Shown piece by piece: positions 3,599-62,115 of a stretch of 64,000 bases of DNA; the first letter of the stretch is position 1, and each line of letters begins with the position of its first letter. The DNA lies in NCBI GenBank assembly GCA_965153355.1, contig OZ231126.1, positions 38,192,001-38,256,000 on the forward strand, in the 5' to 3' direction. The stretch is from Flaccisagitta enflata. Its lineage: Eukaryota. The position numbers and the translations under genes are program-made. The notes beneath the pieces are model-generated. The model saw nothing but the letters and a program-made list of their open reading frames with translations. It did not search any database and was not told the DNA's origin.

Positions 3599-4098
3599 CA
3601 CAATGCTTGATCGACCAAAGGGGGAGTCATAAATCAACTACAGGGGGAGTCAAACATTGAATAGGGGAAGTCAAACTTAGGGGAAAGTCAAACATCTCTC
3701 CGCGCGCCTTAATTTTCAGAAGCGAAGACTCGTCGGGGGATCTCATTAACAAAATGATTGACTGAGTAAACGAGTGACTTTTGTTTACTTTCTCAAACCG
3801 CGCGGCGAATAACAGCTCAAGGTCGCCATTAGAGGAAGCCACCGAATCCCGTCAGCGAATAGGTCCATACCGCCTCTCTCAATGCCCTTCCGCCTCCAAC
3901 CCCCCCCCCCCCCCGCCTCATTTAAACCTGACTTGTTACAAGCATTGCCTGTTAGTAGCGGACTGGGGCAGAAATTAGACATGGGCCTTTTCATGTCACG
4001 CCTCGGCACAGACCCATAGGCAAGCACAGTCAGACACTGCATCGTAATGGGACGCTAGTCCACGACTAGAACAAGGCCAGATAGACGGCCAACAAGTA

Positions 4099-8533: not shown

Positions 8534-34962
<26,429 letters not shown>

Positions 34963-37749
34963 CTGCAAAAACCAAATTTGAGGGGGACAATGAAAAAATG
35001 GAGCTTAGATTTGGGCTTCATGCTAATTTTTTGGTCCTTGACAATTTTCAAAAAAAAGGAATTTGCTGAGAAAAAAGGTGAAGAAAAACATTTTAGTAAG
35101 GACATTATAAAGTGGTTTTTACCCGTATTTGAAATATTCAATGATGATATGAATCTTTGTTATGTTCATTCAGGTCCACTACCCTGAAGAAGAGGGGATA
35201 CCCTCAAAATATAGGGGTGATTTTACTAATGTAACTAGTCATCCAAGGATCCCACATGGTCAGCGGTACCCGATGCCCTGCTTGGGGTGATCAAGTGAAG
35301 TAGTGGAGTGAGAGCAGGGCAGCGGCCCCAAAGGGCCGATGTCCTGTAGGACACAGGGGGAATTTCCAGACGTCCTGAGGGGGAATATAGCAGGCCTAAG
35401 AGGTAATTGAGGCGGGGTTTGAGGTCTGGGGGAAGATTTATGCCTGTCTAGGGGCAGGCCTTAGGCCTTGGGGGCAGATTTGAAGCTTGGAGGACTGATT
35501 TGGGGCCGGGAATGCTGATTTGAGGTTTGGAGAGCGGATTTGAGGCCTGGAGAGCTGATTTGATGCCTTGAGAGCTGATTTGAGGCCTGGAGAGCTGATT
35601 TGAGGCCCGGAGAGCTGTTTTTGGGCAGCGGCCCCGAAGGGGACGAAGTCCTGTAGAACACAGGGGGACTTTCGTTCGTCCGTTCGTTCGTTCGTTTGTT
35701 CGTCCATCCTCCCCCTCATCAAGCCCCTCAGGCCTCAAATCTGGCCTTTCAGGCCTCAAATCTGGCCTCTCGGGCCTCTAACTCAGCCTCTCAGGCCTCA
35801 AATGCAGCATCTCAGTCCTCAAATCTGGCCTCTCAGGCCTCAAATTCAACCTCTCAGACCCCAAACCTGACCTCTCAGGCCTCAAATCTGGTCTCTTAGG
35901 CCTCATATCCAGCCTCTCAGTCCTCCAACCTGGCCTCTCAGGCCTCAAATTAGGCTTCTCAGGCCTCACGTCCTTCGCTAAGCCTCAATTTGTGCTTTCA
36001 GGCTTCGTCAATCTCTGGCTCAGAAAGCGCAATCCAGCGCTCTCAAGCCTCCGTCAGCCTCTCCAGCTTCAAATTGACATTCTCTGGCCTTACATCAGCC
36101 TTCTTAGACCTCAGTTTAGGCTCTTGAAGGCCTTCAGTCAGCCCTCTATAGCATATCATCCACTTCTTCAGGCAGGACGAACGAAAGTCCCCCTGTGTTC
36201 TACAGGACTTCGTCCCCTTCGGAGCCGCTGCCCTGCTTCCCCTCATTCCATTTCACAATCACTCAAAGCAGGGCAACGGGTATCGCTGACCACACATTGC
36301 CCTTGGGCGACCTGTTAGGCCTGGAGGGCTAATTTGTGGGCTTAGAGGGCCTAAATCAGGCCTGAGAGTGAGGATATGAGGCCTCGCCAACCGGGGGGGG
36401 GGACGGAGGGACGGAAGGACGGAAGGACGGAAGGACGGACGGAAGGACAGACGGACGTCTGGAAATTCCCCCCTGTGTCCCACAGGACATCGGCCCTTTG
36501 GGGCCGCTGCCCAAAAAGTAAAGTGTGACGGACGGATAGATGGACAGACGGACAAACGGATGGATGGACGGACCAACAGATGGACAGACTGATGGACGGA
36601 CCGACAAAGCGGTGTATAGAGCCGCGTAACACGCGACTAAAAATGATACAATTTGATAATGATTGCACTCTAAGCCGGATCAACAAGGCGCAGGGCCCAA
36701 AGCTTAGCTAGGGGCGCGGGGGCCTCCTTAATTATAAGCTTTTTGAATATATACACACATAGTTTTAAAAAAGATTTAATGTTCAAAATATACTTAAGAC
36801 TGGGATTTGGGCCTTCAGACTGGAATTTGGGCCTCGAGACTGGGATTTGAGGGGGAGGGACAGAGAAGGAGGAGGAGGAGTAAATCCCCCAAATATGTGA
36901 AAACATAGGTCATCGACCCCTTAGGCGCGCCGCCCTGCTCCCCCCTCAACTTCAACCACAACCAACTTAGGCAGGGCACGTGTACCACTGACCATCTAAC
37001 ACTTTTGCGACTATTCCACTTTGACTTGTGCTCAACTGCTCACGGACGGACCAACAAACCGAGGACCAACAGATGGACAAAGCCTCTTTAGAGTTGCGTG
37101 TCCACAACTGAAAATCATGATAAAAAGAATTTTATCGTAGAGCATTCTGCTTGGCGCCAAATGAAAGAAAATTTTCAAATTTACTTACCCTATCAATTTC
37201 ATTTGAGGCCCCAATCGGTCCTCATAAGAACACGAAAACCATGTTTCTCTGGAATATGTCAAAAAGCCGAAGACTTAACTTTTTTCCCAAAGATTAGCAC
37301 CCCAGGCGATTTTGAAATTGGAAATAAAATATTCTGTTAAGCTTCACTAGAGCCCAATTCAAGGGACTGACCCAAATCATGCGTTCTGGTGAAGATGCCT
37401 TAGAGCCGACATAGAAATAACAAAAAATATCTTAGAGCAGTACAATGAATGCCTTATTGGGAAAAAAAGGTTGAAGTCGATCTTCAAATTTCTGACATAT
37501 TCCAAAGAAACATGGTTTTTAGTCGCATGCTACACAACTCAGCCACTTTTTGGTCCATCTGTCAGTCCATCTGTCAGTCCATCTGTCAGTCTGTCCATCA
37601 GCACATCCATCAGCCCGTCCATCAGTACATCCATCACAAACTACTTTTATTGCATTTTTTGCTTAATTAATGCTTTTGAACATTACAGAAACACTAGGGG
37701 GTTGAGATGAAGAGGGGCCGGCAGATCGTCAATGATCTCCTTCGCCATA

Positions 37750-41648: not shown

Positions 41649-42265
41649 CACTGTGCTTCTAAAAAAAATTCTCAGTGGAAAGTCATATAATTATGGGTTT
41701 TTCTGCATTTTTGAGCAGTATTGGCATGTAAGAGCATGTAACTAGCAAAAATAAAATCATTCCCCGAGCGCTTTTTGAGTAATCTTCAGAAAATAAAAAA
41801 ATTAAACCTATTTGTGATGCAGATTCCAAAGAGTTGTATTGGCTCATATTTTGATTCCATATTGTTATTCTATACAAAATTTCCTTTCATTTGATAGGTC
41901 ACACTATATGGTTTTATATAGAAATTAGGTTTTCATATTTTTAGCCACCGTTACTTTTTTGTAATGGTGACTCAAAAAATGAAAACTTTAATTCTTTGCA
42001 AAAGTATAAAGTGCGACCTATCAAATGAAAGGGAATTTTGCATAGATTAACAATATAGAATCAGAAATTTTGTCAACACATCCAAAGAGAATCTGCATTG
42101 AAATTAGGGCTATTTTTTTCTGATTTTGAAGGTTACTCAAAAAGCGCTCAGTGAATGATTTTGTTTTTGCTAGTTACATGCTCTTACACCCCAATACTGT
42201 TAAAAAATACAGAAAAACCCACAGTTATATGACTTTTCACTCAGAATTGTTTTAAAAGCACAGTG
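41649..42265. mobile_element. Chapaev-like foldback MITE (copy of the 2983-3598 family)
   Basis: CACTGTGC...GCACAGTG termini, 4-bp TSD TACG. Confidence 0.75.
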
Positions 42266-45241
42266 TACGGAGGTAGATGTTACACGCACTTGACTGAGTA
42301 ACAACGGGTTATTTTTTTCTGAGGCTCAATGTTGTTATTTGAATGACTATATGAGGCTCAAACCGTTGCTAAACTGTTATTTTTTTCTCATCAATCTTCT
42401 AATGTAACGATTGATTAGGATGTCTGTACTTCCATTCCTTTCGCTGCTTTCTCTGGAATGAAAGGGATCTAGGGTAGGAATGAAATAAAGGAGAACAACC
42501 ATTCAAAATAAGGAACAAAATGTTGTTATAACTAAAATACAGAAGAAAAAGCCACCCCTTCTTCAAAACCGCCGCATGTTACAATTGAATGCAACGGAAA
42601 TTAAAGTGAATCTAAGAGAAAAGTGGTTGGACATGAGGCTGAAATTTTGTTACATTTTTGATTTTCTGAGGCTGACGATGTTGCTACAAATGTTCTTATT
42701 TTTTGACATTTTGAGCCTCAACGTTGTTATAAAGAAGGTTGTTACTCAGTCAAGTGCGTGTATTTGATGCTGTTTTCCTTTTCAATCATATGTCCGAGTA
42801 GTAAAGCCATTTCATGTTCTATCGCGGCCCCTATGTGTAATCTATTTTTTTTCCCATCCCAGCCAAGGGGGATGGAAAAACAAAGGGTTTGGAAATACCG
42901 CCAACTTGAAAACAAACTAACTTTGGAGAAGTGCTGCTCGTCAACGAACAAACTCAAGACAACTTGATTGGTCTCTTTTTAGATGCGGACATGCAACTCT
43001 AAAATACTTTGACTATAAATTACGCCCACGAGTTTCAACTGGCACTGTCTATGAGCGTCTATCTGACTGACGACTTGTGGTGAAAGAAAGTTGGCCGATT
43101 GGAAAATAGGAAGGCGATCGTCTCGTTTATTCCCTGCCCCTGCCCCGGCCCATCCCATTAAATTCATCCATATCATCCCCATAGTAAGCTGATCGGGCAA
43201 ACGATAAAAACCAACTAAAATCCGGCGATAAAAATGCAAAAATGCAAAAGACAAAAATAACAGACCGGAAGACAAGATAAAAACAACGTTATTAAAAGCA
43301 AAGACGCGTATATAAAACTTACTTTTAGGCCCACTTTCGTTGGTTTCAACCCACAGTCTGTCGAAGTCAAATTAACGTAAATTGTCCGTTCATAAGTTTA
43401 TCTGAAATAAAAAGATGAGAGATTATTGAAATTAGTAAATTCCAAGGGCACATTCAATCAATCACGAAAAATCAATCAATCACTTTAGGAAGCAATGCCG
43501 TAAATAAAAATAAAAACAATCGATCCAAAATTGGATGACACGAAGACGAGTTACGTATGTTTGTTTACGTAATAAAAACAAATGGCATAAAATTAGGCTC
43601 CCAATTTGAAGGGTTAAAACTGATTGTACACATTAGTGCAAAATGATGTGACGTATCAAATGGTAGTTGGTGAATTTTCAAGATACCTATCCCATTGAAA
43701 ATAACCTACCATATACCCCGCCAAAAATGCCGTAATGTGCTATTTTTTAATACTAATTTTCAGTTGCTCTTTTGTCCTATCATTTTGACCGATCGAAGCT
43801 GCCATCTGGCGGCGGTTTAGTGAATCAATTAGGACATGTCAACAGCTCTCAAACACGCTCTTGTCAACGCTAAAACGAAAAGAAAATGGAAGCAAGAAAA
43901 GAATAAAGATGTGAAAAAAGTGAAGTAATGCTCATGAAAAAAATAGGAAAGAAGCAAGACGTCATTTACGTAGTCTTCCAATCTTCGGTGAAACGACCGT
44001 AATCGCGTAAGTTGGTCTTTGGCTCTTCGCTATCGTCTCTTTTCCGCGGATGAAAAGCGGAAATAAACGCAACAGGATCAATCAGGCAACAGGATTTCTT
44101 TTTTTACTGCAATAAAAACTTCGGCTCTCTCGCTCTCTCGCTCTCTCGCTCTCTCGCTCTCTCGCTCTCTCGCTCTCTCGCTCTCTTATTCTGCGCCGCT
44201 GATACAAAATTTGTTCCATCGATATGCAACGCTAGTCTAAAACCTGGGAATCTGAGTAATCTGTATTATTACCTAGGTTGTTTTGGGGCAGTTTTAAGTA
44301 GGGGCGGGATTGAGTTTTTGGGCATGGCGGAGTTCAGGGGCGCATGGTTAAGTTTAAGGGTGCGAGGTTGAGTCTGAGGGCGCAAGGTTGAGTCTAAGGG
44401 GGCAAGGTTGAGTTAAGGGCGTGAGGTTGAGTTGAGGGGCGCGAGATTGAGTTGAGGGGCGTGGGGATGTTAAGGGGGGCAGGGCTGATTAGGGCCAAGG
44501 ATTTTTTAGGGCAACTCATTCTTGTTTTGTTGAAAATAGCCTCCTGAAAGTCTTTCATTTTTCTTTTAGATTTAACCATCACAGCTCATGTTGACATTTC
44601 GCATGAACACGCAACCTACGTAGCTCGCCTCGGGTAGTCGGGTTAATAGTGAAAGTGGGACGATTGGGAACCGGAATTGGAGCGCCGATTGATTACGAAT
44701 ATAAGGTAAAATCACACACCTATATTTTTCTTAAAGAGACAAAATACCGATAAAACCCCGCCAGGGAGACGATTTAAACGGGTATATAGTGGAGCATTGG
44801 TGTTTACACGTTTTTCTTTTCATTAGAACAAAGATTCTGACAGTGTGGCTCAGTGATGTTAATTCTAATTTTATTCACAGTTAAGATATATTAATATGAT
44901 AGTTTGATATATACACAAATTGACAAAAAAAAAAGATTATTTATAAATATTTTTAAAAAATGATAAAACTATGTTTATATTGTTTAATAATAACTGATTA
45001 ATTTTAGAATCATTTTGATATTTATTGTCAAAGATTATTTTATTTTTATAGAATTAGTATTATTATTAGTATTGTTATTTTAAAATTCAGATATTGTTTT
45101 TTATGAAATTTAAAGCTGATATTTTTTTATTTTTTGTAAAGCGTTCTTATGAAAAGAAAAGCGTGTATTGGTGGTTTCAGGTGAAATGATTCAAACGGAA
45201 AACCCTCTAAAAGTTAAATTGCTTTTTCTCTTACTTCTCAG

Positions 45242-47385
45242 ATACTCACGGGCGATCTGTTTTATTCCACCAAGAAGATACCGTACCCCCTCCTCCACCC
45301 TTCCTACTCCTCCGCCAAGACAAGGCAACCGCATCCATTACGATGTCATGAAGAAAATCGTCGACCTTGTAGGTGGCTATGTAATGCTGTAATTGTTAAT
45401 AATGACTAATCTTTACTGTTATTGCCGTGCCTGAGAGAAACAATTTTCTCGAGAGACATGGAAAAAATTGATCATGTGTGCAGAATACTAAGGACCATGT
45501 TTTCTACAAAGAAAAGCTAAATACAAGGTGTGAACCCCCTGAAAACTGTAGCACCCCCACCTACAGCTCTGACTAATTATGCTACAAAATCTTTAGGGGT
45601 AGAGAAAGAATGTTTATATCAATATAAGTGACGATACCAGAGCGATTTTAATTTTGATCTCAAACTCAAGATATTGCCTTTTAAAGGTGTCAAAATGAGT
45701 TATTTTTAAAAATTCATAAAATCAAGGATTTTTTACCATTATTTCAGATTAGAATGGAAATTGCAAAATCGCTTTGGTGGCGCCACTTATATAGTCCAAA
45801 GTTGCAATATATAACTTATTACAAACAACTAATTACTGTAGTTTGATCTGTAAGGGGGGGGGGGTGCTACAGTTTCAGGGGGTTCACACCTTGTATTAAC
45901 CCTTTCTCTGTAGAGGAAGGCACCACTTGTAAGGCCGGATACACGGCACCACAGTTGCGGGAGGTTAAGGAGGGGTAGTAATGCAAAAACCGCTCGCAAT
46001 TCAGGACCTACCAGCCGACACAAGAGTTTTTTTTTCTTTCAAAATTGCGGTATCCCGGAGAATCAAGTTATCATTATCATCATTATACTTTTTCTCTTGA
46101 GTTTGTTTGTCTGTGTTTCAGGACAAAGAGGGATACAACTGTCCAGTCCAGTCTGGGAGTAGGTTCCGCAACAGCGTTTACATGATCGGCAACATCATCG
46201 ACGATGACGCTACGCCCCATTAGCTGCGTTGAGAAGTCGCAAGATACCGCAGGTCTCTCTCTCTCTTTTTAGTTGCGGACACGCAACTCTATTAGAGGCT
46301 TTGTCCGTTGGTCCGCTGGTCCGTTGGTCTGTCTGCCATGCTGGCGTTGTCACGCTCGAGTTGAAAATGCAAAAAAAGGGCATTTACTACACTTTGTTTT
46401 TACAAGAACTAGGTTTATAAGAACGTTTGGCTTCAAATCGTCAAAAATTTAAGAACATGCTAAAAACAATGGAAGGCTTGATATTTTGAAAAAAATTAAG
46501 AACATTAAGCTTAAAATCTTAAAAAACTAAGAACATTATTTTTTTTGGGTTATATTTTTTATTGATTGTTCGTTGTAAATAGACACCCTGTATCTTTTCT
46601 ATTCAGTAAATCATATTTCGCTTTATATAGCTTGTATCTTTCTACTTTCATTGATTTTAATTTACATTTTCCTTTATCATCTCCTTAATGATTAAGAACA
46701 TTCTTATGCGAAGGTTACAAAGTGCATTAGAATAGTGTATGCTGCAGTTGTTATAATGTTTGTAGGTGTGTGTTAGTGTGTTACAGGGAAGTTGGAGGTG
46801 GGGGTTTGGGTGAGGATGGGGGTTGGATGCCCCTGCCCACCCGTCCGCAACGATATTGTGACCCCACATCATTTGTTTAACATTTTTCTAGTGCTTCAAA
46901 CTCAAAACTTTGGTGTGTCAGACTGTCGGTTTGTAATTATGAAATTAATATATTTAATTATGCAACTGTGCAGTCACAAATCATACAAATATATTTTTTT
47001 CAATTACTTGTGCAAGAGGTAGTGTAGGTACATGACTATGCGTTAATTAATCTAGATTAAAGGTGCCTTATGGTCATCTTATGTAATTAGGGGTAATTCC
47101 CAAAATAATACAAGTACGTTGACCTTGTTCTGCCATGTCTTCCCTTCTTCCCTGTCTTCCCTCCTTCCCTTTCTTCCCTTCCCTTTCTTCCCTTCCCTTC
47201 CCTGTTGCAGAGGTGCTCTCGATTCTCTCATGGCATCGACGCAGTAAATCGTCCTCTATCCTCGTGCCTCGCTAGAGACTTTTGGAGGAATACTTCATAC
47301 ATAACTCTCAAGCAATTGTCGTCTCTGGGGCATGACCCGCGTCTCAAGATCTATGAACGTTTTCAACTCTGGTTTATTAGAGTGG
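45242..47385 (+). pseudogene. Putative spliced cargo gene remnant inside the TIR element
   Basis: GC-richer blocks at ~45242-45368, 46122-46251 and 47211-47385, each preceded by a pyrimidine tract + CAG, the first two followed by GT; join ...IHYDVMKKIVDL|DKEGYNCPVQSGSRFRNSVYMIGNIIDDDATPH*; stops present; no transposase motif recognised. Confidence 0.4.
45524..45893. mobile_element. Tc1-type MITE inside the TIR element
   Basis: TA|CAAGGTGTGAACCCCCTGAAA...TTTCAGGGGGTTCACACCTTG|TA. Confidence 0.8.
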
Positions 47386-48386
47386 GCAATAATATATTTC
47401 CTTTGATTCACCTATCACTACTTCTCTCTGATGAAGTTTTTTTTCTTCAAGAAACAGAGAAAGGCGTGAAATGGCTTTTATGATCATTACATTGATTTTT
47501 ACAATTACCTAGCTATATTCATATAATATGTAATTCAGTTTTGCGAAGCTTAACCCATGAATGAAGTACTTTAAAAAAAGATCTTGTTCTCATTTTAGCT
47601 TTAATCCTTGCGCGCTGATGTTGATATTTTGATTCCATGCAGATGAGAGGGGGCGGGGAGGATGTTTGAAATTTCGGAGGTTCCACACGATCAGTCAAAC
47701 TCAATTCTCTTCTTAATTTACCCAGTTTTTAGGTGCGACAAAGCACCTCTATAAGTGGCTATGTCCGTAGGTCTGTTGGTCTGTCGGTTGGTCTATCGGT
47801 TGGTAACGCATTCGTTCGACGATCCACACGTCGCACCTTATTGGCCTACTTGGCCTTGTTTTTTAGTTGGTAAGTGGATGGACAAAGCGGACTAGCAATT
47901 GGTCAAACATATTCGCGTTGGAAAGGATGAAATTGCATGAGATACTGTGTGGGTATGTGGGAGGGGGTCTGGTGGAGGTAGTTTGAAGGGGGGTTGTGTG
48001 CGACGATATTATGACCCTGCGTTACTTGTTTACATTATCAATTCTGTAAACGGCTTGCGTATTACCTCAACATTGCTGTTGTCTCGTTACGCATATTCTT
48101 TTCTGCGGAAATGGTTTTGCAATCTCAAGCGTAGGTGCGACACTGAAGATTGAACTTTAATCTATATGAAATTACACAATTATTGTTCATATTATATTGT
48201 TTACCGTAATAATTGTTTCATTTATTCATCATCTATGAGGAATAGATGTGTGCACTAATGGGTGTACACATGCTCGTCGTACGGGAAAAGAAAGTTGCAT
48301 GCTATTTGAGATGAGCAGATAAATAGAAGCGATTTGGGTCGAGATATGGCCCTTGTGTTTTAACCAACTTTTTAAGGTGGCCACTA

Positions 48387-48598
48387 CACATGGGTGCTTC
48401 ACATGGAAAAAGTTGGAAATATTTCCTCCGCTTATATAATGTTAACTTAGTTTAATCCCGCTTTAACAGATTTTCAAGGAATTTTATGTGTTATAGATGG
48501 GATTCTGTTATTATAGAAAACAAAAAATGTCTTCAAAGAACTATAAAATATATTGGGTTCTTGGAATTCCCAACTTTTGCTTAGTGAAGCACCCAGTG
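48387..48598. mobile_element. Short MITE with CAC...GTG ends and a 4-bp TSD
   Basis: CACATGGGTGCTTCAC..AAAAGTTGG / CCAACTTTT..GTGAAGCACCCAGTG; TSD ACTA. Confidence 0.7.
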
Positions 48599-49014
48599 AC
48601 TACGTTGCCATGTTCTTCAAGTGATATACGCATTTTAGACGCGTCCTCTGTAAGAGGCTAGTCCTTCCATTGGTCCATTGGTCTTAACGTTTTAATGGGT
48701 TTAAATTTAAGCAAGACCTCGCTCTCGCTCTCTTGCTCTCACGCTCTCGCTCTCTCTCCCTCTCTGTTTCCTTCTTTTTCAATTTTAGGTTGTGGACACG
48801 CAACACCATAAGAGGCTTAGTCCGTTTGTCCGTCGGTCCGTCAGTACAATCTGAAGTGGGGAAACAAGTGTTTTAGGTGCTTTTTAGGATTGAGTGTGTA
48901 AAGGGAGGGGCATGGGGTTGGATACCCCTACCCACCCGTCTGCGGCGACATGTCCCTTTCTTTTCCTTGTTTCTAATTTCGTCTAGCTGAGCAGCTACAC
49001 AGTTCTTAATAGAT

Positions 49015-49097
<83 letters not shown>

Positions 49098-50555
49098 TTG
49101 AGAGGCTGGGGCTTGAAATTTTGGATCAGGGCGTGTCTGTAATGAGTTAGAACTCAATGATTGGGTGTAGCAATTCGATTTTGCAAAATCCGAGCCTCAT
49201 GGAATCTATCCGGATTCCTGCGAACTTATATTTCATTAAGTAACAACAGTTTCGGCTGCGTTCATCGTCTGTTTCCCCCAGTCTCTCCGTGTCATCTCGA
49301 GATCGCGTAAGCCAGCGTTTGAGATCTTTGGTATCTTTTGTTTTTCTGTTTTCGCGATTTCAGCCGTTGCATAGATGGCAGATTAGAACCGACGGCAGGC
49401 GACGGCAGGCGACAAAAGAGCATTCAGAAAATCATAACATTGTTTTTATAGACACATACGTATAAATTTTGGCGGGGGGTATTGTGATCGGACATAGGTG
49501 TAATTGGTGTTCCTAAAATTCCTAAAAGTCAATTCATAAAAGCGTGCTTCGTTGCAAATCTTTCAATTCTTTCTGATTTGGGGGCCTAATAAAATACAAG
49601 GCGCAACCATATGGTTACCCATCTAGCCTTCATTATAAGAAATGGCGAGAAACAAAAGACACCGGCATTGAATAATAAGGAAAGAAGAAAAGCCAAAAGC
49701 ACGCAAAAGAAACAAAAGCACACATACTTAATAGACGGACGGACATACATTTCTAACATTCTGCCCCATTTTGGAATTTCAATTTCAAAATCTGAGCATC
49801 TAATTCCGGTGGGAAACCCTACTAAAAACACGATACTACCTTCCTTGAAAAAAAAAAAAAAATTTTACAGGAGCCCACAGCCCCAGCCCCTCCCCCCGTC
49901 CACACTCTTACATCCCCACCCCTGTTATCCAACAGATCGACGACTGCCCACCGGTGATGACTCCCCGTCCCGAAAGGATCCACCACCAGCAAATTTTAAA
50001 CGATCAACGATGGCATGGATGGAGACGAGGCGGCGACGAGGAGGTTGAAGCGCCCGTTCTGCAAAAGTTAAAGGGAAGGGGAAAGAGAGCAGACCTTAAG
50101 GGCACTCAAGCCTGGGATTTGACTTAGTGGAAAATAATAAGTGAGGGCATACTACTAAAACATGTCATACGAAAGTATTCGTAATAATGACTAAAAGACC
50201 ATGTCTAAAACAAACGCACAACAAAATGTACATATGTTCCAAGGAACCAAACAAAACAAGACAAAATGAATAAGTTACTAACTATATATAAAAACGAATC
50301 TGTAAGGTAAAAAAATTAGTAAGCATCATGGAACGACCACATCACCTGCGCCTTCTCCATTACAGAGGTGGGTCACTCGGGCTCAGCCTGTCACTCCGTG
50401 GGCAAGAAAACGATGAGAATGATGTGCGTCCATGACGACCATCGAAGAAAAGCAGGTGGTGCAGCCGTCTGAGAATGTATCCTCCCCGAAGGAAGGAAAA
50501 AGAAAGAGAGAAAGAATAGAGTAGATTGATTGGTAAAGTTCTTGTAGTACCTGAT

Positions 50556-52991
50556 TCAGTTACACAAAAAACTCAACCTCAACCCTTCTAACCAGCAGTA
50601 CTTCACGCGGCGTTTTCGCCCAGGCAGGCGGGCGTCATTCCCACCCGGGCCGCGCCCCCGACTTGGCCGGCCTGTCCATCGATGGATGAGGATGTGATGG
50701 TGGAATACGATCCTCAGCGAATGTTGGCGCTCTCCACGCCATGTTGCAAATTGGTAGTTAAATTGAACAGCAACTGGGCGTGGCACCAATCAGTGTTTAA
50801 CTGGCGGTCTGATTTTTCCAAGGTCTGGTTCGATTTTTCTTATTACCAGGCTTGGGAGCGTCTTTTTGCATTAGGATCTGCTGACCGTCTTTTTGTGCTG
50901 GAGAAGACGCTGGAGGTGGAGATGCTGCATCGCAATTCGGCGTCAGTCGAAATTTAGGACGCACGGCGGACGCTGTTGTCAAGTCGACGGCCATAGCCGC
51001 CTTCGCGCATTCCACAACTTCCTCTTTCTTCTTAGCCTTCATCGCACAGGCCTGCTTCTCCTTTTCAAGCTGCTTCTCCAGTTCCACGACTCGCTTATTG
51101 CCTTTGACCACCTCATTGTCCGCAGCCATTGCTGCTCGACTATCATCGTCTCTCTCCTTTTGGATATTGCGTCGAATCCTCGTCTAAGACTTGTGGTACT
51201 TCAACTCGTTGGCCTTGGATTGAGCGGCAACGAAGAAGTCTTTTGGAAGCCTTGATGTTAAATTCTTTACCACACCCAATGGGAGCATTTGGGGTCAGTG
51301 AAAGGAGGCTTCTGTTAACAATGACTAGCGATGTGGTGTCCATGCGCAGGGTCAAAGGCTGGATCCGACGGGGGGAGCGGGTTTGCACTTGCTGCAAACC
51401 TTGGGCAGACTCCGACTGCTGACGGGGCGCTACACCAGCTTTAACAGATGCTGAAACACCGCCCTCTAGTTCACTTCCTACCGCTGCTTTTGGCGGCTGC
51501 AGTAGAAGAGAAAGACGCGCTCGTCTGCTGACCAGAGACTTCAGGCTGAACAGCGGACGCCTTGGCTCCGCCAGTAGAACCTCCCTTAGTTGCTGCTTTG
51601 TGCTTTCTTCAAGCTCTCATGGTCTTCTTCCCTTTTGCTGCCGCTGCCCCAGGCGCTTGATTCAGCGCCACGGTTGCTGCCAGCGTTTTCGTCGGCGAAC
51701 CACTTGAAGCTTCTCCTTGGCCTTTGGGCGTTGCTAGCTGCAGGAAGCGCGCCTGGAGGCGGCAGAAGAGAACGGGCTTTGCTTTTGGAATCTGGCCCTT
51801 TTTGTTGACTCGGCTTGTTGCGCTTTTGTGAGTCTTTCCCCACATGTGATCTCTTCGGTGTTGTGAGGGAGTGACATCACGAGGACCCTGTTGCTGCTGA
51901 TTTGGGGGATGAACCAATCCAGGGCGCGATTGGCGGCTTCCTGATGCTGTAGAGTGAATTGCCGCTGATGTGGCTGCGGCTGCGTCGAGCACAAATACCG
52001 CTGGTGGAGTTGCGGAGCGCCGACGGAAGGTACTGCAGATGAGATTTCGGGTTGCATCAGGAGGCTTCGGGCCGCATTCTTCCTCTTCGTCGCCTGGACC
52101 ATGCGGCGAGACACTCATATCATGCTCCTCCTTCTTTTATTGCTTTGGATTTTGCAGCTCCAGAGTCTCAGGCAAGCTCTGTTTGATTAGCCGATGAGCG
52201 CATGAGAGTTTGTTTGTTGCAGCATGAAAGTTTTCAAACTCTTTGAAGAGAGATACTCCGACGTCTGGACTGATGATGCGTACACGCGGCACGCCTGCAT
52301 CCGTTGGTGCTTACTCCTCCAGCGTCGCAGTGTCCACTTCCGGGTCAATGTCTTTCTCCACCTCCTCTCCATTCACCAACACCTCCTCCTCTGTTTCCAT
52401 CCCCTCCTCCTCCGCTCTTGCTCCATCATTGACCAGTCTCTCTCTCTCTTCGCCCCCGCTGCATTGACTAGCAGCTGCAGACGCTTGATCGTGAGGCGCT
52501 AGGCGCCCGAAATCAAGGCAAAATTGGCGAGGCGATGGGGGCAAATCCGATGATGACGCGCCGTCGCGGGGCGATGGATAAGCCACAGTCGGCCGGCGAT
52601 TGATCGGGAATCCGCCTGCGAACCTCCATCTTTATTGACCACCAATGAAGAAGCAGCCATGAGATCATGACGTTGGATAGCTGTGGCGATTTTCAACGGC
52701 ATCATCTTGTTGACGCTTTGTCGCCATTTTGCGTCTACGGCTGAGCAATTAGCCACGTGAAAAGCTGCCAGCGAGCAGCTTCTCCTCCTCCGCCCGAGCA
52801 GCGTCGTGGATGCAGATCCTTCTCGGTAGAGCCGTCGCTGAAGAGCCGATGAAGAAATCCCGGGATCCGTGCGGCCGTGCGACCGTCGGCTTCTGCCCTC
52901 GAGGCGCTGCTGGCCAGGACATCTTGACTCCGACCGGCGACTTCCAAGATGCGAAACTGACTTAAATAGATGGAATGACGTCGTCAGCGAG
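50556..52991 (-). pseudogene. Decayed additional ORF between integrase and the 3' LTR
   Basis: GC-rich ~2.4 kb. ORFs 52311-52586 and 51609-52118 share a frame that extends to 52991 through a few stops; 51586-51843 and 50797-51129 share a second frame. Contains acidic, Ser/Pro-rich and coiled-coil-like (KRVVELEKQLEKEK) segments. Confidence 0.55.
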
Positions 52992-53276
52992 CTTTGAAAT
53001 GTTCGTTTGAGAACATTAAAGAATAAAACGGATTTTGGCATAATAATATGTACATATAGACAGAGAAGCGAATGAATCAGTGTTTTTTTAATGTATGAGA
53101 TGGAATGGACAACATATTGACAAGAGGAAAGATGAAAGCATGGATAATCAGAAACAAATATGAATAATAACAACTCTTTGTAAATATAACAAGTCAGAGT
53201 CTCAATCACTCATATCTATAGTTACTAATGGACGAGCCCATGCGCCTTTTTCTCTCTCTCTCGAAACTTAGCGTTT

Positions 53277-56200
53277 TTATGAGTCCAATTCCAGCCGCAC
53301 AAGCTTTGTGCAGTCTTCCATCACGATCTTTCCATCTTGGCGTCGAACATGAGCCCTCCGGACATGAGCTGATGATCCTTCAACACCCATGACGCGTCCT
53401 AAGCTCCAATTGTGACGAGGCAGCGGTTAGTCCATGGCAATGACCATGTCATCAACCGCAAAGTCTCTCGGATCTCGACCATTTGCTTGTGGCGTGAAAG
53501 AAGCGACAAATGTGGAAGCCCTCGATTTCCAAAAGCATCCACACGATTGCCTTGCGCTCCATTGAATCTTAGATGGCGTAAGTTGGCCTTGTTGCACCAG
53601 ATCCCAGAGGGGCACGACCGGATGTTGATGGATTGAGGATGTGATTCGGTGTGAGGGCCTCAGAGTCATTTGGATCATCGCTGAGCGCTGTCCGAGGACG
53701 GCGAGTGAAAATTCCTTCAACTGCGGCGACAGCGGTGTTGGAGGCGTCGGCGTGGAGGATAGCGCCAGTCGAGATGGAAGCAAGATGGCGCTTAAAGAAA
53801 GCGACGATTCTCTCCCACACCCCTCCATAGTGAGGTGTTCTCGGCGTGATGACCCACGAAGGCAGCGCCGCTGCTGAGGTCGGGGAGTTGACAGAGCGGT
53901 TCCAAGCTTCCATTTCCTTCTTGAGGATATTATTGGCGCCGACTAGATTCGTTCCACAGTCTGAAGTGAACCGGCGGATTCCTGGGCGCCTTGCTGCAAA
54001 GCGGATGATTGCATTTACCATCGCATCGGCTGACATGTTGAGAAGCAATTCCACATGGACGGCGCGTGACACGAAACAGGTGAACACTCCGATCCACACC
54101 TTGTGATCAGCACGCCCGTTCATTTTATGACTTTCCTCATGTTGTCCAATCCAGTCTCTGCAAAGACAGGCGCAGGATTGGCGATTTGTGGAAGATTGGC
54201 CATTCTGGTTGCGTTCTTTTTAAAGTTCTTCTGGCATCTGAAGCCCGTGTTGACGACGCTCTTGACAGCCTGAAGACCTTTTGTAATCCACACAAATTGG
54301 AGTAATTGGCACAATGTATGCTTTGCACCCGCGTGAAAATCATTATGATGATAATGGCGAGTTAATGATTTCACATTCTCGTCTTTTGGCGGAAGGATGA
54401 AGGGAAATTTAGCGTCATGTGCGATGTCAGCATTCTCCAATGGCTGCGGCAGCGAAGGATGCCATCGTCGTGGCGAAAGGTTCAACACCATCTCCTTGTT
54501 TTGATGATGAAGTCACATAACTGAGCTTTCTGGCTTAAAGACTTTTCCCAATTCAAATTGTTCGAAAACGTCGGAGCAATGTTGCCGCTGCAGCGACATG
54601 ACGAGCTGTTTGCGCGCCTCCTCCCAGACGTCTTGCGTCACTTCCGGTTTAGGAAGAAGATCCTTTACTGCAATTGGGCAAAAGTATGTCTTTTCCTCTT
54701 GGATATTGTTTCTCCACCTCTTGACTGCAATGAGAACCATGCCGATGATCCGCAATTTCTGCATCCATTTTCCACTGCTGCCAGAAGTATCGCGTCAGCC
54801 ACTTGTTTCTTTTTACTTTCCGGCGCATATAGAGCGGCGACCTGCTGCGAAATAGACGCATCTGGCGATGTTCGTCTTTGGCCGTTGATCTTCAGGAGAG
54901 CAACAAATGCAGGACCATGATGGAATTGACGCCATTTTTAGGCTTCATGGGCCTGGTTCCCACGACTGCAGTGGTCGGCTGGGTTGTTTGTGAGAGTCAG
55001 CCGCGCGCCACTGCGTTGAGGGTCAGACCCACTATGGATCTTGGAGAGACGATTGGCGAAGAATACAGGCCTCGGTTTTGCCGGATTGTAAATCATCTTC
55101 AGTGCCGATTCAGAATCAGACCAAAATCTGCCCCGACAAGATTGTCCAAGTCAATGGTCCTTCCGACGGAGCGTTTGAGCTGCACTGCTTTTTCTGCGGA
55201 TACAATCTCGACTCGTGGAGACGCTGTTGGCCATGATGAAGCACGTTTTGGATTGAGTGGGATGACGTGAGATTTGGAGGCAAGGAATGAAATGTGAACA
55301 TCTCCATCTCGATTGACTTGACGTCGATATGCAACTGCTCCATATCCGCCTTTTGGAGCCGCATCGCAAAAGATCTCGATGTGACTTCCATAATGTCGCT
55401 GTTTGTCGCGCCGCCATTCCACCAGCGTTCAATTCGGTATTGTTTTAGAAGAGGCCAAGATGAAGTGTAGCGGAAGAAAGATTCCTCGACGCTCTCTTCA
55501 GGGCGAGATCATCCCACTCTGGGCTGACAGAGTTGAATGTCATCTCCGATGTATGCACTTGGACTCCAAAACCCCCAATGGATCATAAAGTTTGGCTTGC
55601 ATGGAGACCAATTGACGAGGTGTTTTTGCTCTAAATTTGAATTCCTCGTGCAGATAAAGTATGAAACGTCTTCCGCGGGAAGCCATGGGAACGCCCAGCA
55701 CCAGCCGTGGAACTGTCATCTTGCTTATCTGAGATGGGGTGGCACGTTAGGATCTCCATCCATCAATTGCCGCACATTACTTTTCCACTTCACAAGATCC
55801 ATCCCGCCTTCAGCCATCGCCGCCACTGAATCCACCTTCAGCTGCAGTGCTTCGTCGACCGAATCACCCCACTTCCGTCGTGAAACATAGAAGCCGGCGA
55901 ATAAGATCGTAGACGTTGTAGGGATATTTGGGCCGGATTACTTCAGCATGCTTTCTGACGGTGAAGGACGTGACGAATGAGCTGGATTGGCTGCCGAAGA
56001 CATGTGATAAGAACAGATTCAAAATGGCTATAAATGAAGTCTTGGAGATCTTTGAACCAAAAGAATCTGAACAGATCCGCGTCGTCAGGATGGACGCGGA
56101 TCTGGTGGAAGAACGCCTTTATATCACACATAAGGCGATCTTCCACTGGCCTTTTTACATGAGGATGTCCATCAGAAAGCTGTTCCCTAAGTCATCAATT

Positions 56201-57445
56201 TTGGACCTCCGACGAGCAAATCATTGAGTGAGATCCCGTCGGTCGCCACACGCGCATCGTGGCATACGCGCGTTTTTAACAGCAGCAATTCCACAATATG
56301 AAGTACTTGAAGTACCAGCAGCCTTTGACTTCTCCAATGCCGTCTCATCAAATGGAAATCGACGCTGTCAATCTCAGCTCGCCACCTCCCGTCTGCGTAA
56401 AGCTTCTCGATTTCACGGAAGACTCTTTCTTTGAAGGCTGGATCACGGTTGAAGCTGAGCGTTTCCCAGTTGCAGGCACTTCATCATGATGATCATTGAT
56501 TTCACTCTTCTCAGAATTTCCATGAATTTTCGTGATAGAATTTCCATGTGACAGGAGCAAAATATTTTTTCACCAGTGGGCAAAAATATGTCTTTTCCTC
56601 TAACACTTTGCTGTGTTCTGATATTCTCAAGGGAATCGCCCATCTCCTCTTGCGAGACGATTGATGATGCAAAGTCATGGTAGAAGACGGTCAATGTTGC
56701 TGTGAGGACGCGTTAGTCGAGGATGCGATCGATGCTGTCGTGGAGGACGACATCCGTTGCGATAAGCGTTAGCTTGAAGCAAAGTCTCGCCCCTCTTCCC
56801 CCCGTTTTTCCACATACAGTCCAACCGAATAAACATCTGAAACAAGTCAAGGATCCTGAAGGCCCTCTCGAGCGGATTTCTGGCGTATCCGCATGCGCCC
56901 GCTCGATGATCATCATAACGCCGCCTTCTGCCTCTGGAAACTTTATATCTCTGATGTGTGGTTGGTCGGATAGGTCGCGGAGAAAAGGAGGAATGTCGCG
57001 TTCGCTCGTTAACAAGTCACCCTCCAACGCGTCGTTGGCGTCGGCGACATATTCATAATCGACCGATTGCATGGTGAATGATGCGATGAAACGATCCTCA
57101 ACAACACGATTTCCCACAGTAATCACCGTCATTTGCGCTGTTTTTGTTGGAATCAAGGCTGCGACAGCGTGGTACTGATCACGCCGATAAGCGATCCCGG
57201 CGTCTGGAGTACGATCATAGCGTCATCGTCCTCTGCGCACCCGAAGAATTGTTTATGAGCACTGGAACAATCGGGCGGACGCGTCGTCCGAATGAAGGCG
57301 GACCGCAGCGTTGCCGTCGCCGCCAGTCATGCCGTGACGTTAGAAGAGATCACTTCCGTAGGATTGGCTGCAACTCCGCCGTCGACGGAGCTGTTGGTGC
57401 TGCTGCAGCCGCATCCTCTGACTTGTTGAAGGAGCCAGCGGTACT
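53277..57445 (-). pseudogene. pol: BEL/Pao pol (protease, RT, RNase H, integrase), frameshifted and deleted
   Basis: LFGWTVCG (post-protease), CDIKAFFHQIRVHPDDADLFRFFW (RT), IFCDAA..GYGAVAY..FLASKSHVIP (Pao RNase H), HYHH..FHAG, FAETGLD, VFTCFVSRAVHVEL, SDCGTN, PHYGGVWER, LTPNHIL, WSLGRV (integrase and C-terminal domain). Confidence 0.9.
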
Positions 57446-60400
57446 TTATTTCCTGCTTATTCTCTCCTTTCTTCTCTTCCTTTTCTTCTTTCTTGTAGGT
57501 GCGCCCGTGAGAATCGTGGCATGCCGCTTCTTGCAGATCTGGCAAGTTGGTCTGTTCGCGCATCCTTTGGCGTTGTGTCCTGGCGCGAGGCAGTGGAAGC
57601 ACAGACGACGAGACATGATCTTTTGAACTCTCGCGTCCACTTCCAACTCTAACAGCTGATGACACTCTTCTGTTTGATGCATTCCACTGCAGACGTTGCA
57701 GCGGTCCATCGACTGCATCTTTTGCTTGCCATTGGTCAAAGCATCCTCATATGATGATGGCGCTTCTTTTTCTGTAGTTGCGACTGCTGCCACTGATGCT
57801 GTTTTGCAGCTTGCGCCTTTGTTGCGCTGAATCACCGCCCATGTCTCGATCATGTTGACCAAGTTGTCGAATGAAAATAATTGTCCATTTTGGGCCGCTT
57901 CATGTTGCTTTTCCCAGAATTTATCTGCAAGATGAGGGACCCTCTTATTGAGGATCTCCTGCAGCAGCTCGTCACGATAGCATTGTTGCACTTCTCCACA
58001 GGTCCTCGCAATCTTCTTTGCTTTTTGCAACCTTGCAGACAAATTGAAATGCCTTGCATGGTCGGCCGACTGGATCTTCGCCTCCGCGGCGATTTCGTTA
58101 AACAGCGCCGCAATGTTGCAGCGCCTTGCCATGAAGACGGCGTCCATTTTTTCGAAAGCGTCGTCAATCTCTCCTCTTGCTGTCGCTTCAGTTGCACCAA
58201 TCGTCGCAGTTTCAATGATTTCCTTTGCCGGACCAGCAAACCACTTGGGCAATTCCAATAAAATGTCCATCTGCGTCAAGCCTTCATGCTTTTCAGCATC
58301 TTTAAACTTCCTCTTCCACATCATGAAATCAGTGGATGAGAAGCTCCTGCAGAGGCTTCTCAGGTCTTGCTCTCCAATGCTTTGAGCCGGCCTCCCTTGC
58401 TCGCATGTGATGGGTTGTCGCGCTCTTTCCAAGAACATGTCCAGAGCCGGATTGTTGGGCATCTGAACGTGGACTTCCGGTTGCGAGGCTGCCAATGTGC
58501 TCCACTTGATGATACGCTGGGGTTTGTTGGAGTAGCGCGTATTGACCCCGACTTTGACCGGAGATCTCTTTTTGGTGGTTTATCCTACAACTTCTTCTTG
58601 CTGATTCATTTGTTGTTGACGATCATCTTGATGGAATCGGGGAGCATCAAAATCTTGGCGGACGTACTGTCGCTTTTGTTGTTCTTCTTTGCGTTGTTTC
58701 TCTTCTTCTCTCGCTGCGGCAAGGTCAAAGTCCTCTGCTGAATCTGCATCTTCAAACTATCCACTTCCTGCTGCAAACGTTGATTCTGCTGGATGACTTC
58801 CGAGAGGCGTTACTGAGGCGCTTGCGCTACTTTGGCGCCTCGCTGCAAATCCACTCATTGTCTTCTTGGGAGCGACTTTTCTTCTCTCCTTATCTTGCAG
58901 CTGCTGTGCCAACTTCGCGTCAGCGGCCTCCTGCTTCTGCCTCCTGCGCATCGCCTCCGTTGCATCACCTCCGCTTCCGGCTGTGTTGAAGATCTTTTCC
59001 TCTTGAAGGAGAGGTCCAGTCTCCCTTCTAGCAGAACCAATCTGCTTCTCGAAGATCACTTCCGGTGCGGTAGGGAGAATCGTTGCCGCTGGGGTTTGAT
59101 GATGCTGATAATGATGCTGTTGCTGTTGCTGAAACCGTTGCTGCTGCCACTGTTGATGTTGAAGCTGCTGCTGCTGGTCAGGATGCTGTTGCTGCTCATT
59201 CTGCTGCTGCAGTTGATGCTGTCGCTGTCCTTGCTGCTGCTGCTGCTCCATCTGTTGCTGCTGCTGCATCGGCTGCTTGACGGACGTTTCCACTGGCTGC
59301 ACATGACGTTGCTGCAAGTTCAAATTGAAGATAGATCGACGGTCCTTTGGCGGATGCTGCGGCTGCTGCTTGTCCAGCTCAGACAGTTGTCTAAGCTTCA
59401 CATCCCGCTGCTCTAAAGCTCCACCAATGCCGCCGTCGTTCAGGCTATTCCAGTGCTTTCGTTGCATTTCTGCCGCATTGTTGAATACTCCTGCCCTTCT
59501 ATCTTCATCTCGCTGCTGCTGCTGGCGAAAGTTACACATTCTGTCGTATAACTCTTTGTCTTCTTGTGATGAGCTTCGCTGTTGGAATCCCAATGGCACC
59601 GCGATCGGCGCCTTTGGAGCTGTTGCTGCACCACCATCTTCACCTTCAGCCATCATGCGCAGACGTTGTTCTGCAAGGCGTTGCTGTCTCGCTTCTTCTG
59701 TTTCTTCACTGACATTCATGCTTTCGACAGGATGGTTATTTAAAGCTGGAGGATCCACTACCACCGCTGGGATCGCGGCGGAAGGTTGCTGTTGTTGCTG
59801 CAGTTGCTGTTGCATACGTTCTCCTGCGTCGTTTTGCCGCTGTTGTTGTTGTTCATGCGGCTGCGTTGCCGGTTGATGTCGTTGCTGCTCTTGTTGTTGT
59901 TGCTGTTGTTGCTGAAGCAGCAAATCTTTCTGATGTTGATGCTGTTGTTGCTGCCGTTGATCGTGTTGTTGCTGTTGTTGAGCCACAGGTTGTGGCGCCG
60001 GCTGCAGGATCTGATGTTGTTGTTGATCTTGCTGACGAAATTGTTGGAGTTGCTGCAACTGCTGCTGCTGCAACAGCTCTTGCTGCTGCCGTTGAGCCGT
60101 CGTTTGCTGCTGCTCCTGTGGTTGGTGGAGTTGACGTTGCTGTTGGAGCTGCTGCTGCTGCATCTGCAATTGATGCTGCTGCTGTTGCTCCTGTTGCTGT
60201 CGCTGCTCCTCCTCCCGTTGTTGCTGCTGCATATCGTCAATCAGGCGACGGCCTTGTCGCATTTCTTCCTCCAACTGCCTACCCCATCTGTCTCTCTCCG
60301 CACTCCTGTTGACGAAGCGTCGCCTCGCCCTCTCCTGCGGCGTCAATCCGTTGATGATCCCGCGGCCTCTTGCGAGAGCATCGGCGTCGTCGAGATCCGC

Positions 60401-61072: not shown

Positions 61073-61193
61073 ACCGAAGTGAGATACGAGATAGCGTTGA
61101 AGCAGTCGAGGCAGTGTAATTTACTGTGCGGCCGCCACTGTCCAATTTCGTTTTCGGAGGTCAAAGATGGAAATAGTCGAGTCGTTTTTAAAT

Positions 61194-62115
61194 TGTTGAA
61201 ATATAATTTACGCCCACGAGTTTCAACTGGCACTGTCTATGAGCGTCTATCTGACTGACGACTTGTGGTGAAAGAAAGTTGGCCGATTGGAAAATAGGAA
61301 GGCGATCGTCTCGTTTATTCCATAAAAATTTCAACAACTGAAGAGAGGGGATAAAATGAAAGGGAAAGTGGGCGTTAATGGTGATCAGCAAACGCAAAAG
61401 ACAACATGAAATCGAGACAGGACACAATAAAGGACAGAAACAGCACATGACAACATGTTCATCTTCTTCAGAGCCCATGCCACCTGATAATACCTGCCCC
61501 TGCCCCGGCCCATCCCATTAAATTCATCCATATCATCCCCATAGTAAGCTGATCGGGCAAACGATAAAAACCAACTAAAATCCGGCGATAAAAATGCAAA
61601 AATGCAAAAGACAAAAATAACAGACCGGAAGACAAGATAAAAACAATGTTACTAAAAGCAAAGACGCGTATATAAAACTTACTTTTAGGCCCACTTTCGT
61701 TGGTTTCAACCCACAGTCTGTCGAAGTCAAATTAACGTAAATTGTCCGTTCATAAGTTTATCTGAAATAAAAAGATGAGAGATTATTGAAATTAGTAAAT
61801 TCCAAGGGCACATTCAATCAATCACGAAAATCAATCAATCACTTTAGGAAGCAATGCCGTAAATAAAAATAAAAACAATCGATCCAAAATTGGATGACAC
61901 GAAGACGAGTTACGTATGTTTGTTTACGTAATAAAAACAAATGGCATAAAATACAAGGCGCAACCATATGGTTACCCATCTAGCCTTCATTATAAGAAAT
62001 GGCGAGAAACAAAAGACACCGACATTGAATAATAAAGAAAGAAGAAAAGCCAAAAGCACGCAAAAGAAACAAAAGCACACATACTTAATAGACGGACGGA
62101 CATACATTTCTAACA
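61194..62115 (-). repeat. 5' LTR (922 bp)
   Basis: TG...CA with short terminal IR; near-identical to 43020-43593 plus 49596-49758. Confidence 0.9.

What the first reader, a model, noticed from the sequence alone, without database searches (positions are those of the whole stretch)
43594..49588. Recently moved 6-kb TIR element carrying a spliced non-transposase cargo
Seen: it sits in an LTR that is nearly identical to its partner, so the insertion is recent. Yet its interior looks like aged host DNA: several HINEs, MITEs, microsatellites and three exon-like blocks with splice signals and stops. TIRs are long and patchy (~220 bp) with TAGGC ends. The TSD reads as 7 bp (5 or 3 bp if the TIR is extended), which does not fit the usual hAT 8 or Mutator 9. 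Inference: a Pack-type element of an unusual family that moves an intron-bearing gene or pseudogene and its passengers as one unit.
Basis: partly seen in the sequence, partly recalled or inferred. Interest (0 to 1): 0.7.

Follow-up and report, generated by a model that had tools for sequence, protein, structure and literature searches.

The report
Non-autonomous DNA transposon nested in LTR
A 6-kb cut-and-paste type mobile element with inverted ends and a 7-base target duplication has landed in one long terminal repeat of a retrotransposon, but nothing supports the idea that it carries a working, spliced gene.

Summary
The physical observation holds. A 5,995-bp insert (43594-49588) interrupts one LTR of a BEL/Pao-type retrotransposon. 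The sister LTR (5 substitutions in 743 nt) keeps the empty site with a single ATAAAAT, so the target duplication is 7 bp. The ends are inverted repeats: 11 of 13 terminal bases, plus four colinear 8-12-nt motifs out to about 270 bp. None of 2,000 shuffles and none of 391 window chunks reach four motifs. Laid public contigs show the two arms at roughly 15-30 times single-copy depth, and one match stops exactly at 43594. It is therefore a member of a repeat family. The interior holds three HINE-like units, two MITEs and microsatellites, whereas the 12.5-kb retrotransposon around it has no HINE-like hit. This fits passengers carried in.

The cargo-gene reading is not supported. There was no Pfam match in 121 ORFs and no homologue in four protein searches. 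Language-model recognition was low. No RNA read lay on the exon-like blocks.

The superfamily is unresolved: the 7-bp duplication fits P-like elements, and the TAG start looks hAT-like. This is an ordinary non-autonomous TIR transposon. Interest is low.

The parts
43587..43593 (.). Left copy of the 7-bp target site duplication (ATAAAAT)
   Evidence: the same 7 bases stand at 49589-49595 and only once in the partner LTR.
43594..49588 (+). The inserted TIR element, 5,995 bp
   Evidence: blastn of the flanks against the partner LTR gives matches ending at 61952 and starting at 61946 (7-nt overlap); contigs skipping 6,002 nt represent the empty LTR form.
43594..43606 (+). Left terminal inverted repeat (13 nt)
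   Evidence: matches the right end at 11 of 13 bases. These are the only two zero-mismatch hits of the degenerate pattern in the window.
43716..43854 (+). Left subterminal motifs (43716-43726, 43765-43776, 43799-43807, 43847-43854)
   Evidence: colinear with the same motifs in inverted orientation at the right end. 0 of 2,000 shuffles reach 4 blocks.
49317..49477 (-). Right subterminal motifs (49467-49477, 49411-49422, 49373-49381, 49317-49324)
49576..49588 (-). Right terminal inverted repeat (13 nt)
49589..49595 (.). Right copy of the 7-bp target site duplication
61946..61952 (.). Empty target site in the sister LTR
43014..43593 (-). Interrupted LTR, first part (continues at 49596-49758)
61202..62115 (-). 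Intact sister LTR
44124..44186 (.). (GCTCTCTC)n microsatellite inside the element
44330..44461 (.). 20-nt minisatellite, 6.7 copies
45242..45368 (+). Exon-like block 1 (AG...GTAGGT, GC 0.50); not supported as coding
   Evidence: for the signals. Searches found no family or homologue; 0 RNA reads. The bin 45086-45339 has about 28 times single-copy depth.
45503..45914 (.). Nested MITE with 59-nt inverted arms (90%)
46122..46252 (+). Exon-like block 2 (in-frame stop at 46221-46223, GC 0.53); not supported as coding
   Evidence: for the signals. Searches found nothing; no specific RNA reads.
46266..46877 (+). HINE-like unit a (head with GTCCGTTG repeats, tail with the inverted partner of the head's 9-mer)
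   Evidence: (hundreds of contigs start matching at 46266 and stop at 46865).
47211..47381 (+). Exon-like block 3 (GC 0.46); not supported as coding
   Evidence: for the signals. Searches found nothing; 0 RNA reads in bin 47118-47371.
47726..48040 (+). HINE-like unit b
48378..48610 (.). Second small MITE (arms 48378-48420 and 48566-48610)
   Evidence: bin 48388-48641 has depth 9,444 against about 75 for single copy.
48783..48960 (+). HINE-like unit c
49018..49095 (.). (GA)39 microsatellite

Best explanation
This is a non-autonomous cut-and-paste (class II, TIR) DNA transposon of a low-copy family. A transposase encoded elsewhere in the genome is inferred to recognise the 13-nt terminal inverted repeats and the conserved subterminal motifs. 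It would excise the whole 6-kb unit and insert it through a 7-nt staggered cut, which gives the ATAAAAT duplication. The interior is non-coding filler. It consists of low-copy spacer DNA peppered with HINE-like elements, MITEs and microsatellites that were picked up at earlier sites and carried along as passengers.

Shown: the insertion, the duplication, the inverted ends, the multi-copy arms, and the lack of any detectable coding content.

Inferred: mobilisation in trans, passenger status of the nested repeats, and the superfamily. The superfamily is unresolved. My rough odds are P-like 35%, hAT-like 25%, Mutator-like 10%, other or undescribed 30%.
For: - Empty and filled sites with a perfect 7-bp duplication in sister LTRs.
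- Terminal 11 of 13 inverted match, plus 4 colinear subterminal motifs. None of 2,000 shuffles and none of 391 window chunks reach 4.
- Arm depth in run X1. Exact single-copy contigs have word depth 65-85. The arms have summed depth 2,432 at 43737 (7 contigs), 1,144 at 43979, and 2,053-2,263 at 49502/49508 (5-6 contigs). Unique interior bins have 131-533. The ends are thus at roughly 15-30 copy-equivalents and the interior at 2-7.
- A 1,349-nt contig of the marine metagenome X3 lies on 43594-43731 only, and the match stops exactly at 43594.
- A variant lacking 107 nt of the left arm (joint 43840 to 43948) has depth 508.
- No Pfam family at E of 0.1 or better, other than low-complexity or below-cutoff hits, in 121 stop-to-stop ORFs of 32 aa or more.
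- No protein homologues.
- HINE-like hits number 3 in the element and 0 in 49589-62115.
- No inner copy of the terminal motif within 2 mismatches. It is therefore not two complete elements flanking host DNA.
Against: - No autonomous partner or second full copy could be inspected, because no genome is held.
- The window has no other copy.
- A metagenome scan gave 7 loci. None showed blastn similarity to the element, and I read all 7 as chance matches.
- The 7-bp duplication rests on this one copy.
- Summed contig depth is only a rough proxy for copy number, as the tool itself warns.
- The exon peptides are short (33-42 aa), so homology searches have little power beyond close relatives.
- Only about 6% of one polyA RNA run was read.
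- Block 45086-45339 has about 28 times single-copy depth, similar to the arms. A near-identical contig (1 difference in 244 nt) stands in X3. This is unexplained and could mark a conserved family core.
Confidence: 0.7

Rival explanations
1. Pack-type element. The TIR element has captured an intron-bearing host gene or pseudogene and moves it as cargo.
For: - Three GC-richer blocks (0.46-0.53 against 0.40) are bounded by AG and GT signals on the + strand.
- Blocks 1 and 2 can be joined in frame, with a stop in block 2 (read).
- Candidate splice-bounded frames are skewed to the + strand, 11 against 1.
Against: - No Pfam match.
- No homologue among longer or similar-length proteins, and none in 1.84 billion representatives for block 2.
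- Language-model recognition of 1,355-1,358, against 2,300 reached by 91% of real families.
- 0 RNA reads on the blocks. All 62 laid RNA reads lay only partly on the stretch, almost all in MITE, HINE or microsatellite bins, with a few on the LTR.
- The total count of such frames (12) lies within the window's background range of 1-14, and several lie inside HINE-like units.
Confidence: 0.08
2. Decayed autonomous element or internal-deletion derivative. The exon-like blocks are the last remnants of the family's own intron-bearing transposase gene.
For: - The block in bin 45086-45339 has about the same depth as the arms, about 28 times against 15-30 times. This is expected if it belongs to the family core.
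- The blocks all lie on one strand.
Against: No transposase, THAP, hAT-dimerisation, MULE or other DDE family appeared in 121 ORFs, and there were no protein homologues. Short, diverged exons could escape these searches.
Confidence: 0.15
3. Not a transposition. The insert is an assembly chimera, or DNA inserted by repair.
For: The LTR family is extremely abundant (depth about 1,000,000 against about 75). No listed contig bridges either junction, so read-level support for the junctions was not seen.
Against: A perfect 7-bp duplication lies exactly at inverted-repeat termini. The arms are multi-copy, and an independent match boundary falls at 43594 in another data set. Exact single-copy contigs cover the interior in X1.
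Confidence: 0.03

Closest known systems
P superfamily, especially Galileo-type elements of Drosophila
   Same: 7-bp target site duplication and long, internally structured terminal or subterminal inverted regions. Non-coding copies are mobilised in trans. (Galileo: 7-bp TSD, P superfamily, long TIRs; passages read in PMC2775673.)
   Different: Galileo TIRs are hundreds of bp long and over 99% identical within a copy. Here only 13 nt plus four short motifs are shared. The target ATAAAAT does not resemble Galileo's GTAGTAC consensus. No THAP or P transposase partner is known. P-type ends usually start with CA (recalled, not tested), whereas these start with TA.
hAT superfamily non-autonomous elements
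   Same: Short terminal repeats beginning TAG. The recalled consensus is YARNG, and 4 of 5 positions fit. Subterminal motifs are spread over 200-300 bp of both arms, and the interiors are heterogeneous.
   Different: hAT elements make 8-bp duplications (recalled), and here there are 7. An 8-bp reading would need a point mutation in one copy and ends offset by one base. No hAT dimerisation domain was found.
Pack-MULEs (Mutator-like elements carrying gene fragments)
   Same: Arms of about 200 bp or more, a non-transposase interior, and movement as one unit.
   Different: Mutator duplications are 9 bp or longer (recalled). Pack-MULEs are defined by interior fragments with demonstrable homology to host genes, and none was found.
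Dada superfamily
   Same: 6-7-bp target duplications (abstract and passages of PMC3706591).
   Different: Dada elements lack TIRs and insert into snRNA or tRNA genes. This element has TIRs, its target is an LTR, and Rfam finds no small RNA gene in the stretch.

Membership tests
Class II TIR (cut-and-paste) transposon, non-autonomous | Terminal inverted repeats at the exact insertion boundaries | tested here: met
   11 of 13 terminal bases match, plus 4 colinear subterminal motifs. 0 of 2,000 shuffles and 0 of 391 window chunks reach that.
Class II TIR (cut-and-paste) transposon, non-autonomous | Target site duplication shown against an empty site | tested here: met
   ATAAAAT stands twice at the filled site and once in the sister LTR.
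Class II TIR (cut-and-paste) transposon, non-autonomous | Several copies sharing the same ends | tested here: inconclusive
   Arm depth is about 15-30 times single copy, and one independent match stops at 43594. No second copy could be read, and its flanks and duplication are unknown.
Class II TIR (cut-and-paste) transposon, non-autonomous | No transposase of its own | tested here: met
   No transposase family in 121 ORFs of 32 aa or more.
P superfamily | 7-8-bp target duplication | tested here: met
   7 bp here. Galileo makes 7 bp.
P superfamily | Autonomous partner with a THAP-domain P-type transposase | not testable with these tools
   No genome is held. No transposase was found among the 113 window ORFs scanned outside the element, of the 127 ORFs of 95 aa or more listed.
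hAT superfamily | 8-bp target duplication | tested here: not met
   7 bp.
hAT superfamily | Terminal YARNG motif (recalled consensus) | tested here: inconclusive
   TAGGC fits 4 of 5 positions.
Pack-MULE / Pack-type element | Interior fragments homologous to host genes | tested here: not met
   No family or homologue was found. Power is limited for short exons.
Pack-MULE / Pack-type element | Mutator-type 9-11-bp duplication | tested here: not met
   7 bp.
Dada | No TIRs; insertion into multicopy small RNA genes | tested here: not met
   TIRs are present. The target is an LTR, and no Rfam small RNA gene lies at the site.
HINE (Helentron-associated interspersed elements) for the nested units | Subterminal inverted repeats near both ends, hitch-hiking microsatellite, T-rich boundaries (PMC4067079, passages) | tested here: inconclusive
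   The head 9-mer and its inverted partner in the tail, GTCCGTTG-type repeats and T-runs before the head are all seen. No Helentron partner was examined.

The most novel reading that the evidence does not exclude
The element is the first seen member of a TIR family with a fixed 7-bp duplication. The family would belong to a divergent P-like lineage or an undescribed superfamily of a marine planktonic animal. It would routinely transduce several kb of host DNA, including an orphan, lowly expressed spliced gene that the available databases cannot recognise.
Probability: 0.07. Interest if true: 0.5.

Novelty: new member of a known kind. Interest (0 to 1): 0.2.

Why it matters
It matters little beyond annotation. 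It documents a DNA-transposon family with a 7-bp duplication that moved after its host retrotransposon integrated (LTRs 0.7% apart). The animal's genome is dominated by LTR and HINE-like repeats. It also gives a clean example of nested repeats carried along as passengers. If the full assembly showed many copies with 7-bp duplications and a partner transposase, the family could be placed, or a new lineage named. Gene capture by TIR elements in animals would be of more interest, but nothing here supports it.

Tried and rejected
- Whole-genome copy census: not possible, because no genome is held.
- Scan of metagenome contigs with two subterminal motifs: 7 loci. None showed blastn similarity to the element, and I read all 7 as chance matches.
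- Earlier notes of this scan: nothing by place, by sequence or by words.
- Rfam over 42800-50400: only a sub-threshold lncRNA hit on the GA repeat.
ORFs shorter than 32 aa therefore remain unscanned.
- Block 2 in the search for homologous proteins: the query was too short for that tool.
- Tc1/mariner (TA), PIF/Harbinger (TWA) and Merlin-type readings of the junction: rejected, because none reproduces the empty site sequence (reasoned).
- Composite of two complete small elements: rejected, because no inner terminus within 2 mismatches exists.
They say nothing about habitat or expression.
- Run X2, a second individual, shows only 90-95% pieces over the interior. This could mean the insertion is absent there, but the tool warns that holes prove nothing, so I do not count it.
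- Marzo et al. 2008 (PMC2268567) is not held. PMC10045372 gave no table of duplication lengths.
Full report
**Setting.** The window is AT-rich, repeat-laden eukaryotic DNA (GC 0.34-0.42). A GC-richer block lies at about 50-62 kb. No whole genome is held for it. All evidence from outside the window therefore comes from public sequencing runs, protein databases and papers.

**The host element**
- Blastn of the flanks shows that 43014-43593 plus 49589-49758 repeats at 61202-62115.
- A global alignment gives 5 substitutions in 743 aligned nt, one 1-nt indel, and a 172-nt segment present only in the second copy.
- Between the two copies, on the minus strand, lie a Pao-retrotransposon peptidase match (55102-55428, E 1.3e-9) and an integrase zinc-binding match (54123-54512, E 6e-6). 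This is a BEL/Pao-type LTR retrotransposon in minus orientation, with a fragmented pol.
- The LTR family is very abundant. Its summed contig depth in run X1 is about 1,000,000, against 65-85 for exact single-copy contigs.
- Near-identity alone would therefore not prove the two copies are partners. But both carry A at 43310 and 43405 (61670 and 61765), where over 90% of the family depth has C. They are sisters.

**The insertion**
- The intact LTR reads ...GGCATAAAATACAAGG.... The interrupted one has ATAAAAT, then 5,995 bp (43594-49588), then ATAAAAT again.
- The bases outside the two 7-mers differ, so 7 bp is the longest possible direct repeat.
An 8-bp reading needs a mutation in one copy and ends offset by one base.
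- Contigs that skip 6,002 nt occur in all three DNA runs. They are the empty form, expected from the many other LTR copies.
- A cut-and-paste excision would not be expected to restore a clean single 7-mer. The event was therefore an insertion into this LTR after the retrotransposon integrated. With LTRs 0.7% apart, that is recent in relative terms. No mutation rate is known, so I give no absolute date.

**The ends**
- The two termini match in inverted orientation at 11 of 13 bases.
- Further in, four shared words of 8-12 nt lie in the same order at nearly the same distances from the two ends: 122/111, 171/166, 205/207 and 253/264 nt.
- None of 2,000 shuffles (mean 0.145, maximum 3) and none of 391 real 320-nt chunks of the window reach four such blocks.
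- A plain local alignment score is less striking: 28, against a shuffle mean of 18.3, sd 2.5 and maximum 32.
- The arms are thus not long TIRs in the Mutator or Galileo sense. They are short terminal repeats plus conserved subterminal motifs, the layout expected of transposase-binding sites.
- No other copy of the termini or of the 11-mer motif stands elsewhere in the window, including inside the element.

**Family evidence from public runs.** One run search and one lay were allowed.
- Run X1 holds 69% of the sampled words. It is probably the source sample.
- In X1 the unique interior is covered by exact contigs of depth 65-85.
- Summed over contigs at least 90% alike, depth is 2,432 at 43737 (7 contigs), 1,144 at 43979, and 2,053-2,263 at 49502/49508 (5-6 contigs). 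Unique interior bins have 131-533.
- Taken as a rough ratio (the tool warns that this is no copy number), the arms stand at 15-30 copy-equivalents and much of the interior at 2-7.
- A variant lacking 107 nt of the left arm has depth 508.
- In the marine metagenome X3, a 1,349-nt contig lies on 43594-43731 only (7 differences), and the match stops exactly at 43594. This supports the 7-bp reading of the boundary.
- One bin containing exon-like block 1 (45086-45339) has depth 2,101, similar to the arms. X3 has a contig matching 45180-45423 with one difference. I cannot explain this with the data in hand. It may be a conserved family core.

**The interior**
- It contains the following:
  - three HINE-like units (46266-46877, 47726-48040, 48783-48960);
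  - a 412-bp MITE and a second small MITE;
  - a (GCTCTCTC)n and a (GA)39 microsatellite;
  - a 20-nt minisatellite.
- The HINE-like units show a head 9-mer with its inverted partner in the tail, GTCCGTTG-type repeats and T-runs at the head. These fit the description of HINEs in PMC4067079 (passages read). Their family depth is about 3,000,000.
- With the element as query, HINE-like hits number 3 inside it, 0 in 49589-62115, and about a dozen in the rest of the window.
- The young retrotransposon has none and the still younger insert has three. The nested repeats were therefore most likely already in the element when it arrived. This is an inference.

**The supposed cargo**
- The three blocks exist as GC-richer islands with AG and GT at their edges. 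Blocks 1 and 2 can be joined in frame.
- No test supports a gene:
  - There was no Pfam family in 121 stop-to-stop ORFs of 32 aa or more, only low-complexity or below-cutoff hits.
  - Block 1 found no homologue among longer proteins.
  - The 79-aa and 124-aa ORFs around blocks 1 and 3 found none among similar-length proteins.
  - Block 2 had none at E of 0.001 or better in 1.84 billion representatives.
  - Language-model recognition was 1,355-1,358, where 91% of real families reach 2,300.
  - In the polyA RNA run of the same organism, 12.2 million records were read (about 6% of the run). All 62 laid reads lay only partly on the stretch. Almost all fell in MITE, HINE or microsatellite bins, with a few on the LTR and none on the blocks.
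- A crude count of splice-bounded open frames gives 12 in the element, against 1-14 in 20 other chunks.
- The peptides are short and the RNA sample small, so a lowly expressed orphan gene is not excluded. The evidence does not call for one.

**Classification**
- A 7-bp duplication fails hAT (8 bp) and Mutator (9 bp or more). Both values are recalled.
- It fits the P superfamily. Galileo makes 7-bp duplications and has long structured TIRs (PMC2775673, passages).
- Dada makes 6-7 bp but lacks TIRs and targets small RNA genes (PMC3706591, abstract and passages). No such gene lies at the site.
- The TAG start looks hAT-like, fitting 4 of 5 positions of the recalled YARNG.
- Without the partner transposase, the superfamily stays open.

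**Verdict.** This is a real, relatively recent insertion of an ordinary non-autonomous TIR transposon carrying nested repeats. The Pack-type, spliced-cargo reading is not supported. Interest is 0.2.

Noticed in passing
window 43014-62115: The host is a BEL/Pao-type LTR retrotransposon on the minus strand (Peptidase_A17 at 55102-55428, Integrase_H2C2 at 54123-54512). Its pol is fragmented, and a 787-aa open frame (58760-61120, minus) matches no Pfam family. The 5 bases outside its two LTRs differ (TTGAC and CCCTC), so no flanking duplication of its own is seen. One LTR carries a 172-nt segment (61321-61492) that the other lacks.
   Followed up: partly
window 43054-43561 and 49658-50400: The LTR family and the adjacent interior have summed contig depth of about 250,000-1,000,000 in two individuals, against about 75 for single copy. 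This retrotransposon family therefore makes up a large share of the genome.
   Followed up: no
window 46266-46865, 47726-47861, 48783-48895 and about a dozen sites elsewhere (e.g. 22810-23049, 37045-37114): A HINE-like repeat family with hitch-hiking GTCCGTTG-type microsatellites has summed depth of about 3,000,000 in X1 and X2. It is also abundant in a marine metagenome.
   Followed up: partly
window 45086-45423: This bin has about 28 times single-copy depth, unlike its neighbours at 2-5 times. A marine-metagenome contig matches 45180-45423 with one difference in 244 nt, whereas arm pieces in the same run differ by about 5%. This is unexplained.
   Followed up: partly
window 18097-18222, 35426-35651; 18458-18826, 35648-36058: Two loci 17 kb apart carry the same pair of 20-nt and 21-nt minisatellite arrays (families D11 and D7). 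This suggests two copies of a larger repeat.
   Followed up: no
window 2999-3298, 20117-20416, 41666-41965; also 42001-42268 against 3334-3601: Another dispersed repeat of 260 nt or more stands in direct and inverted copies at 63-82% identity, just upstream of the interrupted LTR.
   Followed up: no
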